Below, piece after piece: positions 6,683 to 7,860 of a DNA stretch of 43,719 nt. The notes below the pieces were generated by a model that did not search any database, was not told where the DNA came from, and was given only the letters and a program-made list of their open reading frames with translations. Origin of the DNA: a virus (lineage: Duplodnaviria; Heunggongvirae; Uroviricota; Caudoviricetes). The position numbers were made by a program, and so were the translations under genes. The stretch lies in the IMG/VR virus record IMGVR_UViG_2660238269_000008. The stretch is one strand, 5' to 3'. Position 1 is the first letter of the stretch; each line of letters starts with the position of its first letter.

Positions 6683-7072
6683 TTATTTTTGTCGCGTTAT
6701 TGGGTCAACGTATTCTGAGTAAAATTCGGTCAGTTTTTGAAGGCGCATTTGAAAAGCTGCCAGCATATTTCTACGCTCTACAGGTGGCAGGTTTCTGTAA
6801 ACATCAAGCAGGGCTTTCTCATCATCATCAAGCGCCTCTCTGTTTGTATCTTCTTTTCCTGTCAGTAGCCAGGAAAGGGAAACATTTGTCGCTTCTGCAA
6901 TTTTGGCTGCGGAATCTTTACTGATTGTCCCTCTTTTTTTCCAGGCGTTGACTGATGAGCGTCCTACACCAGCGATGCGCGCTAAATCTGAACCGCTTAA
7001 ATGATGCTGTTGCGAGATCGTATCTAACCTTTCTGCCAGCGGGGTGTCGTATTGCTTTTTTCTCATGTCCAT
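6683..7072 (-). CDS. Prophage repressor, HTH XRE family, DicA/RacR-like, no LexA-type S24 peptidase domain
   Basis: 129 aa; HTH segment LSGSDLARIAGVGRSSVNAWKKRG; C-terminal LLDVYRNLPPVERRNMLAAF resembles DicA LLELFNALPESEQDTQLAEM; divergent from a Cro-like gene. Confidence 0.8.
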   Translation of the reverse strand: MDMRKKQYDTPLAERLDTISQQHHLSGSDLARIAGVGRSSVNAWKKRGTISKDSAAKIAEATNVSLSWLLTGKEDTNREALDDDEKALLDVYRNLPPVERRNMLAAFQMRLQKLTEFYSEYVDPITRQK

Positions 7073-7175
7073 TTAGCAATTATAACCGTTCAGTGAACAC
7101 TAACAATTCCTCGTAGTGTTGACTTATGTTCTCTTTAAGTGAACAATTGTTATGGCTGATTGAATTGGAGGTTGT
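7073..7175. promoter_or_regulatory. Divergent promoter/operator region between repressor and cro-like gene
   Basis: Palindromes GTTCAGTGAAC and AACAATTGTT, repeated gtgaaca motifs, TTGACT -35-like element upstream of the rightward gene. Confidence 0.5.
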
Positions 7176-7451
7176 ATGACAGCATTGGACAAGGCAATAA
7201 AGATTGCTGGTGGTATTCGTCCGCTAGGGCGTGCAATAGGGGCTTGGCCGTCTCAAATACACAAATGGGCAAATGAATACAATGGTCGAGTGCCGACAGG
7301 GGAGCGGGTTCGTCAAATTTATATTGCAACTGGGGTGACTCCTCATGAATTGCGACCAGATTTATATCCGAATCCAACCGACGGGTTGCCTGCTGGAGAT
7401 AAGGCTAACACACAAAATACACCGGAGTTGATTCATGAAAATCAAGCATGA
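7176..7451 (+). CDS. Cro-like / YdaS-family DNA-binding protein
   Basis: 91-aa ORF divergent from the repressor; position and size as YdaS/DicC-type Cro analogues. Confidence 0.6.
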   Translation: MTALDKAIKIAGGIRPLGRAIGAWPSQIHKWANEYNGRVPTGERVRQIYIATGVTPHELRPDLYPNPTDGLPAGDKANTQNTPELIHENQA

Positions 7452-7860
7452 ACACATCCGCATGGCGATGAATGCTTGGGCGTATCCGGACGGTGAGAAA
7501 GTACCTGCAGCTGAAATAGCTCGGGCTTATTTCGAACTGGGGATGACGTTCCCGGAACTTTACGACGACAGCCATCCGGAAGCCCTGGCCCGTAATACCC
7601 AGAAAATTTTCCGCTGGGTGGAGAAGGACACGTCTGATGCTATTGAAAAAATTCAGGCGTTGTTACCGGCGATCGAAAAGGCGATGCCGCCTTTGCTGGT
7701 GGCCCGTATGCGCAGTCACAGTTCTGAGTATTACCGGGAGATTGTCGAACGGCGAGATCGGCTGGTGAAGGATGTCGATGATTTTGTTGCGTCAGCGGTC
7801 GTTTTATATGACCAGATAAATCGCGGCGGCCCGGCAGGGAATGCTGTGGTGATGCACTAA
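7435..7860 (+). CDS. YdaT-family protein (proposed CII-like regulator/toxin of Rac-type prophages)
   Basis: Starts MKIKHEH as I recall Rac YdaT does; 141 aa; third gene of the repressor/cro/ydaT arrangement. Confidence 0.6.
   Translation: MKIKHEHIRMAMNAWAYPDGEKVPAAEIARAYFELGMTFPELYDDSHPEALARNTQKIFRWVEKDTSDAIEKIQALLPAIEKAMPPLLVARMRSHSSEYYREIVERRDRLVKDVDDFVASAVVLYDQINRGGPAGNAVVMH

What the first reader, a model, noticed from the sequence alone, without database searches (positions are those of the whole stretch)
6683..7860. Immunity module of DicA/RacR type: repressor lacks an S24 autopeptidase domain
The 129-aa repressor has an N-terminal XRE HTH and a short DicA-like C-terminus but no LexA/CI-type cleavage domain. 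It is paired divergently with a Cro-like gene and a YdaT-family gene. Induction is therefore unlikely to occur by RecA-stimulated autocleavage and may need an anti-repressor or other signal. The intergenic region 7073..7175 holds palindromes GTTCAGTGAAC and AACAATTGTT as candidate operators.
Basis: partly seen in the sequence, partly recalled or inferred. Interest (0 to 1): 0.35.

Follow-up and report, generated by a model that had tools for sequence, protein, structure and literature searches.

The report
Short non-cleavable prophage repressor switch
This is the lysis/lysogeny control region of an E. coli lambda-like prophage whose repressor is a short DicA-type protein that cannot cut itself after DNA damage. 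That class is already known, so the finding is correct but ordinary; the one new lead is a candidate 55-residue anti-repressor gene 5.8 kb away.

Summary
Window 6683..7860 encodes a 129-aa helix-turn-helix repressor with no S24 peptidase domain. It lies divergent to a Cro-like (YdaS-family) gene and a YdaT gene. YdaT is about 93% identical to the crystallised CII-equivalent of prophage CP-933P, and its published operator is present exactly at 7428..7445.

The repressor aligns with DicA over its full length (26% identity) and shares a C-terminal two-helix motif with DicA and PaaR2. The predicted fold is all-helical.

The operators are better described as TGTTC-N9-GAACA. Perfect copies sit in the spacers of the rightward promoter PR (7127..7145) and the leftward promoter PL (6590..6608), and a half-site overlaps the repressor's own promoter PRM. 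PRM appears to give a leaderless mRNA.

Short non-cleavable repressors relieved by small anti-repressors are documented (Gifsy phages, Qin DicA/Rem). The window has no Rem, Ant or DinI homologue. A 55-aa ORF (12872..13039) fills the exact slot of rem, co-occurs with this repressor family, and follows a LexA box in two relatives but not here. It is an untested candidate anti-repressor.

Verdict: new member of a known kind, low interest.

The parts
6683..7072 (-). CI-analogue repressor, 129 aa (RefSeq starts it at Met3, giving 127 aa). N-terminal XRE/CI-type HTH, then a linker and two C-terminal helices. No S24 domain.
7079..7106 (-). PRM-like promoter (TTGTTA-16-TATAAT). The -10 hexamer ends 6 nt before the A of the repressor ATG at 7072, so the mRNA is predicted to be leaderless, as for lambda cI and PaaR2.
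   Evidence: The spacing between -10 and ATG is conserved in 7 relatives. Leaderless PaaR2 is described in PMC8630535. The transcription start is inferred, not measured.
7081..7099 (.). PRM-proximal operator. It has a strong right half-site AGTGAACA (7092..7099) and a weak left half.
7119..7147 (+). PR-like promoter (TTGACT-17-AACAAT) driving the cro-like gene, ydaT and the replication genes.
7127..7145 (.). Operator OR1, a perfect TGTTC-N9-GAACA palindrome filling the PR spacer.
7176..7451 (+). Cro analogue, 91 aa, YdaS family.
7428..7445 (.). YdaT operator OM, TTGATTCATGAAAATCAA. It matches the footprinted CP-933P site exactly and is centred on the ydaT start codon. It lies at the left edge of the sequence block shared with CP-933P, which in that prophage also holds the PRE-type promoter.
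7435..7860 (+). YdaT, the CII-equivalent tetrameric POU-type regulator, 141 aa, about 93% identical to PDB 8BT1.
6638..6661 (-). Intrinsic terminator after the repressor gene.
   Evidence: conserved in relatives
6588..6616 (-). PL-like promoter (TTGACA-17-AACAAT), 84% identical to PR over 31 nt.
6590..6608 (.). Operator OL1, a perfect TGTTC-N9-GAACA palindrome in the PL spacer.
6361..6513 (-). DUF1391 (YdfA/YdaF-like) gene, the first gene of the PL operon that runs on to dicB, the exonuclease gene, xis and int.
12764..12791 (+). Promoter-like site (TTGATT-16-TAGAAT) upstream of the 55-aa ORF. Its -10 hexamer and the leader that follows are shared with Qin rem. No LexA box is present.
12872..13039 (+). 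55-aa ORF ('w55', phrog_34610), a candidate cognate anti-repressor in the rem/gftA slot. This assignment is inferred and untested.

Best explanation
The region is the lysis/lysogeny switch of a Rac/Qin/CP-933P-like lambdoid prophage of E. coli.

How the switch is laid out:
- The 129-aa protein is the CI analogue. It is made from a leaderless PRM transcript. It binds TGTTC-N9-GAACA operators that fill the spacers of PR (7127..7145) and PL (6590..6608). A weaker site overlaps PRM.
- Binding shuts off two units. One is cro-ydaT plus the replication genes. The other is the leftward operon carrying DUF1391, dicB, the exonuclease gene, xis and int.
- The YdaS-family protein is the Cro analogue and acts at the same operators.
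- YdaT is the CII analogue. It binds the exact published inverted repeat at 7428..7445 and, as in CP-933P, turns on a leftward PRE-type promoter to establish repressor synthesis.

How repression is probably relieved. The repressor is an HTH domain plus a two-helix oligomerisation tail and has no S24 domain, so RecA-stimulated self-cleavage cannot inactivate it. Derepression most likely needs a small protein anti-repressor, as for Gifsy GfoR/GtgR and Qin DicA/Rem. Stochastic flipping of the CI/Cro bistable switch is the alternative. The best candidate anti-repressor is the 55-aa ORF at 12872..13039. In this prophage that ORF has no LexA box, so induction is probably not coupled to the SOS response.

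What is shown and what is inferred:
- Shown here: gene content, domain content, the exact YdaT operator, operator repeats shared between PR and PL, and operators that co-vary with repressor type across relatives.
- From the literature on homologues: the roles of the CI, Cro and CII analogues and the anti-repressor mechanism.
- Inferred: the leaderless start, the operator assignment, and the identity of the anti-repressor.
For: Domains and fold. The repressor has an HTH only, a DicA-like tail shared with DicA and PaaR2, and an all-alpha model whose best full-length fold match is SinR from the SinR/SinI complex.

YdaT: 290 bits to PDB 8BT1. The exact operator is present once in the window (PMC9986795). 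Homology to CP-933P begins at the edge of that operator.

Promoters and operators: three promoter-like sites. A 31-nt block is shared between PR and PL. Two of the three perfect TGTTC-N9-GAACA matches in 43.7 kb sit in these promoter spacers. In eight relatives the layout is conserved while the half-site changes with repressor subtype, GTGAACA against GCTAACA and others, in step at OR and OL.

Functional roles by homology: PaaR2/YdaS/YdaT act as CI/Cro/CII, with a leaderless repressor mRNA and PL and PRE promoters (PMC8630535). Short Gifsy repressors are not cleaved and are relieved by small anti-repressors, and that paper places DicA and RacR in the same group (PMC3121763). Rem relieves DicA repression (PMC10448788).

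Anti-repressor candidate (w55):
- It lies between hok and the w92/DUF968 genes, exactly where rem lies in Qin, with homologous flanking DNA.
- HHalign of the w55 family against the Rem family gives probability 59% and E 9.3e-5 over the 25 N-terminal columns.
- w55 homologues accompany this repressor family in Escherichia, Salmonella, Enterobacter, Lelliottia, Cedecea and Buttiauxella. They are absent from the Qin, Sp9, Sp12 and Gifsy-2 stretches examined.
- In L007 and L017 a LexA box of 23-26 bits heads an operon of a umuD-like gene followed by w55. This mirrors the Gifsy LexA box-dinI-gftA arrangement, whose box the same matrix recovers.
Against: - Nothing here is experimental for this protein.
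- The NCBIfam DicA model scores far below its cut-off.
- PaaR2 gives no BLASTP alignment, and RacR matches only in the HTH.
- Only one operator per promoter is clear. No OR2-like site is conserved.
- The w55-Rem similarity is short and of moderate probability. w55 against GftA is not significant. PHROGs places w55 and Rem in different families.
- About half of the relatives' loci show no w55 within the DNA fetched.
- The window has no LexA box near w55.
- The integrase is interrupted by IS1, so this copy may never complete induction.
Confidence: 0.75

Rival explanations
1. The induction step uses no anti-repressor encoded in this prophage. Either a trans-acting anti-repressor from a co-resident prophage inactivates the repressor, as Fels-1 FsoA does for Gifsy-2 GtgR. 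Or derepression is purely stochastic or environmental flipping of the repressor/Cro bistable switch, as in CP-933P and Qin. On this view w55 is an unrelated nin-region gene.
For: No Rem, Sp12-type Ant, DinI or GftA homologue is found in the window. No LexA box lies near the immunity or nin regions. Cross-acting anti-repressors are documented (PMC3121763). Spontaneous switching independent of RecA and Rem is documented for Qin (PMC10448788). Bistability is documented for CP-933P (PMC8630535). Several relatives lack w55 in the fetched flanks.
Against: w55 occupies the rem slot with homologous flanks, shares an N-terminal motif with Rem, tracks this repressor family across six genera, and is preceded by a LexA box in two relatives.
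Confidence: 0.3
2. The module is a toxin-antitoxin-like addiction cassette. YdaS and YdaT would be toxins, as their Pfam names say, held in check by the HTH protein, rather than a phage switch.
For: The Pfam family names are YdaS_toxin and YdaT_toxin. Two mSphere 2017 papers reported that silencing racR is lethal through ydaS/ydaT.
Against: The genes sit exactly at the cI/cro/cII position of a near-complete lambdoid prophage, between the PL operon and the O/P-like replication genes. CP-933P YdaT, 93% identical, is a DNA-binding tetramer with a mapped operator that is present here, and was reported to be non-toxic. The YdaS-family protein resembles solved Cro proteins.
Confidence: 0.03
3. The repressor is inactivated by proteolysis through another route. 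A host protease might recognise the nearly invariant C-terminal tail (DP.TR.K), or a partner metalloprotease of the ImmA type might cleave it.
For: The last eight residues are among the most conserved in the family (78% mean pairwise identity). One relative, L008, carries a Peptidase_M78 gene in its nin region.
Against: No M78/ImmA-like gene was detected in the window. The annotated ORFs were scanned. Gifsy repressors of the same class are stable during induction. The conserved tail is equally well explained as part of an oligomerisation or partner-binding surface.
Confidence: 0.05
4. The module is an inert remnant in a decaying prophage and regulates nothing.
For: The integrase is disrupted by IS1 in this copy. 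No isolated phage record in the collection carries this immunity region.
Against: All three ORFs, both promoters, the operators and the terminator are intact. They are 99-100% conserved in many strains. The repressor must stay active to silence dicB and the other PL genes. Relatives at 42-59% identity occur in records deposited as phage genomes, such as mEp237, SEN34 and PHB10.
Confidence: 0.05

Closest known systems
DicA / DicC / Rem of cryptic prophage Qin (E. coli K-12)
   Same: A short HTH repressor without a cleavage domain that aligns over its full length (26% identity), including the C-terminal LLxx(F/Y)xxLPxxE two-helix tail. A divergent cro-like gene. A PL operon starting with a DUF1391 gene and containing dicB. 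A small gene between hokD and the ydfU-type DUF968 gene, with a homologous upstream leader.
   Different: The protein scores 38.7 bits against the DicA model's cut-off of 101. The Cro protein is unrelated to DicC. The small gene is w55 (55 aa, phrog_34610), not Rem (83 aa, phrog_340). Qin has lost its ydaT and replication genes.
PaaR2 / YdaS / YdaT of CP-933P (Sakai Sp12), the characterised CI/Cro/CII-equivalent switch
   Same: YdaT is about 93% identical, with an identical OM operator. Homology begins at that operator and continues rightwards past ydaT into the next (replication) gene. The repressor size class and C-terminal motif are the same. A leaderless PRM transcript is predicted. PL carries a copy of the PR operator.
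   Different: The repressor and Cro are a different specificity cassette, with no BLASTP similarity. No paaA2-parE2 toxin-antitoxin pair follows the repressor gene. The operators are TGTTC-N9-GAACA rather than GTTTAGTAA-type repeats.
Gifsy-1/-2/-3 repressors (GfoR, GtgR, GfhR) with LexA-controlled anti-repressors (GfoA, GftA, GfhA)
   Same: The same class of roughly 130-aa non-cleavable lambdoid repressors. A small gene in the nin region lies upstream of a w92-family gene. In two relatives (L007, L017) the w55 operon is headed by a LexA box, as the dinI-gftA operon is in Gifsy-2.
   Different: GtgR is too distant for tblastn to link it to the window repressor. GftA is not significantly similar to w55. 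The window has no dinI gene and no LexA box at this locus.
Lambda CI / Cro / CII
   Same: The genetic architecture and logic: divergent PRM and PR with shared operators, a PL copy of the operator, a CII-type activator gene after cro, and a leaderless repressor mRNA.
   Different: There is no S24 domain, so RecA-stimulated autocleavage is excluded. The CII role is filled by an unrelated POU-type protein. Only one clear operator is seen per promoter.
RacR / YdaS / YdaT of Rac
   Same: The same gene order. YdaS is 30% identical and YdaT 31% identical.
   Different: RacR matches only 28 residues of the HTH, and its tail is longer and different.
SinR / SinI of Bacillus subtilis (structural analogue only)
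   Same: An HTH plus a two-helix C-terminal hook. SinR from the SinR/SinI complex is the best full-length Foldseek match (1b0n_A, E 3.8e-4). In that system a small protein antagonist binds the helical tail.
   Different: No sequence relationship was shown. No SinI-like free-standing copy of the tail exists in the window.

Membership tests
LexA/CI-type autocleavable repressors (S24) | C-terminal Peptidase_S24 domain with a Ser/Lys dyad | tested here: not met
   No S24 hit at E<=0.1 in Pfam or NCBIfam. The protein is 129 aa. The model is all-alpha.
LexA/CI-type autocleavable repressors (S24) | Ala-Gly or Cys-Gly cleavage site in the inter-domain linker | tested here: not met
   The only Ala-Gly (A34-G35) lies in the HTH. 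The linker 72-82 reads GKEDTNREALD (translation).
Short DicA-type lambdoid repressors (the gfoR/gtgR/dicA group of Lemire et al. 2011) | N-terminal XRE/CI HTH, total length about 125-160 aa, no cleavage domain | tested here: met
   All 83 homologues listed are short (71-172 aa; most are 126-133 aa), and none has an S24 domain recorded.
Short DicA-type lambdoid repressors (the gfoR/gtgR/dicA group of Lemire et al. 2011) | C-terminal two-helix tail with the motif L-x3-E-x2-LL-x2-(F/Y)-x2-(L/F)-P-x2-E shared with DicA and PaaR2 | tested here: met
   (alignment with DicA, PaaR2 and the Sp9 repressor),
Short DicA-type lambdoid repressors (the gfoR/gtgR/dicA group of Lemire et al. 2011) | Immunity-region context: divergent cro-like gene and a repressed PL operon with cell-division inhibitor genes | tested here: met
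Short DicA-type lambdoid repressors (the gfoR/gtgR/dicA group of Lemire et al. 2011) | Not cleaved on induction; inactivated by binding of a small anti-repressor | not testable with these tools
   Requires a western blot after mitomycin C treatment and binding or reporter assays.
DicA proper (NCBIfam NF007257) | Score at or above the curated cut-off (101 bits) | tested here: not met
   38.7 bits. The protein is a relative of DicA, not a DicA orthologue.
YdaT / CII-equivalent regulators (PF06254; PDB 8BT1) | Pfam score above cut-off and close identity to the solved protein, including Arg60 | tested here: met
   40.4 bits against a cut-off of 21. 290 bits to 8bt1_A, with the recognition helix identical. 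R60 is read from the translation. PMC9986795.
YdaT / CII-equivalent regulators (PF06254; PDB 8BT1) | Cognate operator TTGATT-N6-AATCAA at the cro/ydaT junction | tested here: met
   The only exact match in the window is at 7428..7445. It is aligned with CP-933P.
YdaS / Cro-like regulators (PF15943) | Pfam score above cut-off; position immediately right of PR | tested here: met
   39 bits against a cut-off of 30. phrog_35 at 1.6e-25. Weak matches to solved Cro proteins.
Rem/GfoA-type small anti-repressors (tested for the 55-aa ORF 12872..13039) | Small ORF in the nin region between hok (or dinI) and the w92/DUF968 (or irsA) genes | tested here: met
Rem/GfoA-type small anti-repressors (tested for the 55-aa ORF 12872..13039) | Sequence membership in the Rem family (phrog_340 / PF27490) or the GftA family | tested here: inconclusive
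   The PHROGs differ. BLASTP finds nothing. HHalign of the families gives probability 59%, E 9.3e-5, over 25 columns only. GftA gives P=0.099.
Rem/GfoA-type small anti-repressors (tested for the 55-aa ORF 12872..13039) | LexA box controlling the operon (Gifsy type) | tested here: not met
   No box of 14 bits or more near 12600..12871. The feature is met in relatives L007 and L017. Qin rem also lacks a box.
Rem/GfoA-type small anti-repressors (tested for the 55-aa ORF 12872..13039) | Binds the repressor and releases it from DNA | not testable with these tools
   Needs pull-down, EMSA or reporter assays.
Type II toxin-antitoxin (YdaS/YdaT 'toxins') | A toxin neutralised by direct binding of a cognate antitoxin | not testable with these tools
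   Context and literature argue against it.

The most novel reading that the evidence does not exclude
The 55-aa ORF at 12872..13039 founds a previously unrecognised family of small anti-repressors, about 55-75 aa long, with 28 representatives at E<=0.001 among 1.84 billion cluster representatives. The family would be dedicated to this clade of DicA-like repressors.

In some genera the gene is wired to the SOS response: a LexA box heads an operon of a umuD-like gene followed by w55. In E. coli and Salmonella that head has been replaced by hok/sok and a LexA-independent promoter. A conserved hairpin leader follows that promoter and is shared with Qin rem.

On this reading, prophages carrying this immunity type would respond to a signal other than DNA damage.
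Probability: 0.3. Interest if true: 0.5.

Novelty: new member of a known kind. Interest (0 to 1): 0.22.

Why it matters
Prophages in Shiga-toxin-producing and other E. coli strains carry virulence and fitness genes. Whether they wake up under antibiotic (SOS) stress depends on the type of repressor. Recognising this common immunity type as non-cleavable predicts that DNA damage will not act on its repressor directly.

The work gives concrete operator, promoter and candidate anti-repressor coordinates for testing. It also corrects the misleading 'toxin YdaS/YdaT' labels in the annotation.

The class and its logic are already published, so the gain is annotation-level. That would change only if the 55-aa gene proves to be a new, SOS-independent anti-repressor family.

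Tried and rejected
1. S24 domain or cleavage site: none found.
2. Rem homologue in the window: none. BLASTP, tblastn and PHROGs all found nothing.
3. Sp12-type 189-aa Ant, DinI and GftA homologues: none by tblastn. The lysis cassette lacks the ant gene that is inserted in Sp9 and Sp12.
4. A SinI-like free-standing copy of the repressor tail: none among 1030 six-frame ORFs.
5. LexA box in or near the immunity region or w55: none. The simple CTGT-N8-ACAG pattern gave only a site in the tape-measure gene. The matrix scan found one very strong box elsewhere, at 16964.
6. PaaR2 as a homologue: no BLASTP alignment. Only the tail motif aligns.
7. The idea that the C-terminal domain is far more conserved than the HTH: not borne out (70% against 67% mean pairwise identity). 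Only the last helix and tail are somewhat higher.
8. An OR2-like third operator: no conserved candidate.
9. Sakai Sp9 as the same immunity type: no, it carries a DicA-like 135-aa repressor.
10. The search for related loci with the w55 alignments failed. The repressor alignment was used instead.
11. Rfam finds no known RNA family in 6300..7900.
12. No paper cites the RefSeq protein accessions of the repressor, Cro-like protein, YdaT or w55.
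Full report
**Where the window comes from.** The window is an E. coli lambdoid prophage. It is 100% identical to a prophage next to potC in strain 2011C-3911 (NZ_CP015240.1). The gene order is int, xis, exonuclease gene, DUF1482 gene, dicB, DUF1391 gene, then the repressor. To the right come the cro-like gene, ydaT, an O-like gene, a DnaC-like gene, the nin-type genes, hok/sok, DUF968, rusA, Q, the lysis genes and lambda-like head and tail genes. The window's copy differs by an IS1 inserted in the integrase gene.

**Checking the observation.** The three ORFs lie exactly at the stated coordinates.
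- The 129-aa protein matches only HTH families: Phage_CI_repr, HTH_3 and HTH_26, over residues 15-75. No Peptidase_S24 hit appears at E<=0.1.
- NCBIfam gives a weak DicA match spanning residues 12-123 (38.7 bits against a cut-off of 101).
- BLASTP against K-12 DicA gives 26% identity from the HTH to the C-terminus.
- An alignment with DicA, PaaR2 (CP-933P) and the Sakai Sp9 repressor shows a common tail motif, L-x3-E-x2-LL-x2-(F/Y)-x2-(L/F)-P-x2-E.
- RacR matches only 28 residues of the HTH.
- An AlphaFold model built on 24 family members (pLDDT 82.6) has five HTH helices, a low-confidence linker (72-82) and two C-terminal helices (83-94, 97-121), with no beta structure.
- Its best full-length Foldseek match is SinR from the SinR/SinI complex. 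All other good matches cover only the HTH: 434 and P22 repressors, C proteins and others.
- The only Ala-Gly dipeptide lies in the HTH.

**The partner genes.** The 91-aa protein passes the Pfam YdaS cut-off and weakly matches solved Cro proteins. The 141-aa protein scores 290 bits against PDB 8BT1, YdaT of CP-933P. That protein is a tetrameric POU-type regulator and the functional equivalent of CII. It binds TTGATT-N6-AATCAA at the end of ydaS (PMC9986795). This exact 18-mer occurs once in the window, at 7428..7445, centred on the ydaT start codon. DNA homology with Sakai Sp12 (the same prophage as CP-933P) starts abruptly at the left edge of this repeat and continues rightwards. The repressor and cro are unrelated. 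The region is therefore a typical lambdoid mosaic: a different cI-OR-cro specificity cassette joined to the CP-933P-type cII-equivalent block.

**Promoters and operators.** A consensus scan finds three promoter-like sites:
- PR: TTGACT-17-AACAAT, 7119..7147, + strand.
- PRM: TTGTTA-16-TATAAT, 7106..7079, - strand.
- PL: TTGACA-17-AACAAT, 6616..6588, - strand.

An intrinsic terminator lies between the repressor gene and PL. PR and PL share a 31-nt block at 84% identity. Each spacer is filled by a perfect TGTTC-N9-GAACA palindrome. Only three perfect matches exist in 43.7 kb, and the third, in the tail genes, is probably chance. A further AGTGAACA half-site lies at 7092..7099, between the PRM hexamers.

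I compared OR and PL of relatives whose repressors are 60-81% identical: Salmonella, Enterobacter, Cronobacter and Lelliottia. The layout is conserved. This covers the position of the -35 and -10 hexamers, the operator in the spacer, the terminator and the PL leader. The half-site changes with repressor subtype, and it changes in step at OR and OL. It is GTGAACA in the window, L010 and L017, GCTAACA in L004 and L007, and different again in L008 and L009.

GTTCAGTGAAC becomes CTCTCAGTGAAC or CTCGCAGTGAAC. AACAATTGTT becomes AACAATTGGC or AACAATTGAA. They therefore overlap real sites without being the recognition units.

In all seven distinct relatives the PRM -10 hexamer ends 6-7 nt before the repressor ATG. 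This predicts a leaderless mRNA, as shown experimentally for PaaR2 and lambda cI (PMC8630535). On that reading the first ATG (7072) is favoured over the RefSeq start at Met3.

**What is known about this class.**
- Jurenas et al. showed that PaaR2, YdaS and YdaT act as CI, Cro and CII, with PR, PRM, PL and PRE promoters and bistable expression.
- Lemire et al. showed that the roughly 136-aa Gifsy repressors are not cleaved on induction. They are stripped from DNA by small anti-repressors encoded in a LexA-controlled dinI-antirepressor-irsA operon. That paper places DicA and RacR in the same group and reports such genes in most E. coli genomes.
- Ragunathan et al. showed that Rem, encoded between hokD and ydfU in Qin, relieves DicA repression. 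[quoted passage not shown]

**Searching for the inducer.** The window has no homologue of Rem, the Sp12-type Ant, DinI or GftA. It also has no free-standing copy of the repressor tail.

I built a LexA-box matrix from 20 E. coli sites recalled from memory. It recovers the known Gifsy-2 box. In the window it finds one very strong box, but at 16964..16983 in the 5' end of a DNA methyltransferase gene, far from the switch.

The 55-aa ORF at 12872..13039 (w55) stands out for five reasons.
- It lies between hok and the w92/DUF968 genes, exactly where rem lies in Qin. The DNA on both sides is homologous between the two prophages while the ORFs differ.
- The upstream TAGAAT -10 hexamer and a hairpin leader are shared with rem.
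- An exhaustive HMMER search gives a small family of 55-75-aa proteins. Its profile matches the Rem family profile over the N-terminal 25 columns with HHalign probability 59% and E 9.3e-5. The match to GftA is not significant.
- w55 homologues occur with this repressor family in Escherichia, Salmonella, Enterobacter, Lelliottia, Cedecea and Buttiauxella. They do not occur in the stretches examined of Qin or Sp9 (which have Rem), Sp12 (which has neither) or Gifsy-2 (which has GftA).
- In Enterobacter (L007) and Lelliottia (L017) a LexA box of 23-26 bits heads an operon of a umuD-like gene followed by w55. This parallels the Gifsy arrangement.

There is evidence against. About half of the relatives show no w55 in the DNA fetched. 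The sequence link to Rem is short. The sample is small. I rate w55 as the cognate anti-repressor at roughly one in three.

**Verdict.** The module is a new, uncharacterised member of the known class of DicA-type non-cleavable lambdoid repressor switches, joined to the already crystallised CP-933P-type YdaT. The added value here is:
- the operator and promoter map;
- the predicted leaderless start;
- the exact YdaT operator;
- a candidate anti-repressor that lacks SOS control in this prophage.

No paper in the searched library mentions these protein accessions.

Noticed in passing
window 805..1571: An IS1 element (InsA 860..1135, InsB 1054..1536) is inserted in the prophage integrase gene with a 9-bp target duplication. 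It is absent from the otherwise identical prophage of strain 2011C-3911. This copy probably cannot excise by its own integrase.
   Followed up: yes
window 16964..16983: A very strong LexA box, TACTGTAAAAATATCCAGTT, scores 24 bits. The median of 20 known sites is 20.9 and the best of 200 shuffles is 21.1. It lies 8 nt inside the DNA methyltransferase ORF (16956..18014), after a terminator at 16791..16808. The identical box is present at the same gene in Sakai Sp9 and in an O157:H7 Balcarce prophage. Which promoter it controls is unclear.
   Followed up: partly
window 12811..12846 (also Qin L003, L004, L007, L017): A conserved hairpin-forming leader, GCGCAGGGATAAGAGGGATGGCCCCCATAAGGGGAG, lies just upstream of the small ORF in the rem/w55 slot. 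It is kept even where the ORF itself is replaced, which suggests a shared post-transcriptional control element.
   Followed up: partly
window 6514..6581 (- strand): The PL leader (CATCAAAGCACAACGGTGCGACAGGT...GTTCCGCC..CCGGCG.TAAGGG) is highly conserved in all relatives despite their different operators. It may be a nut-like site or another RNA element. No Rfam family matched at gathering score.
   Followed up: partly
L007 1581..1944 and L017 3035..3405: In Enterobacter and Lelliottia relatives a LexA box precedes a 107-109-aa protein. By eye its N-terminal motif GFPLPAANYGEQ resembles the cleavage-site region of UmuD (recalled from memory, not tested with a profile). The w55 homologue follows directly.
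   Followed up: partly
window 13105..13383: A 92-aa ORF (phrog_1212) just upstream of DUF968 is conserved in Qin (unannotated, 78% identity), Sp9, Sp12 and Gifsy-2 (STM1021.1n, 38%). It is a constant neighbour of the variable small-ORF slot. Function unknown.
   Followed up: partly
window 19030..21981: Five copies of the sRNA family STnc100 (Rfam RF02076, 120-172 bits) lie in the region between the tRNA genes and the esterase gene.
   Followed up: no
window 19619..20344: A 241-aa AraC-family regulator gene (HTH_18/HTH_AraC, phrog_1450) sits in the late-region moron cluster, where Stx phages carry stx.
   Followed up: no
window 5690..6247 (+): A 171-185-aa ORF (phrog_1244) with CxxC...CxxC motifs is transcribed against the PL operon, between the DUF1391 gene and dicB. 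Its position resembles that of sieB in Rac, so it may be an exclusion gene.
   Followed up: no
window 36183..36201: A third perfect TGTTC-N9-GAACA match lies inside the tail genes. It is probably chance.
   Followed up: no
L013 4599..4937 (Sakai Sp11): The gene annotated 'phage repressor protein' ECs_2209 (112 aa) looks by eye like the S24 half of a truncated CI-type repressor (alignment A3). This was not checked with a profile search.
   Followed up: no
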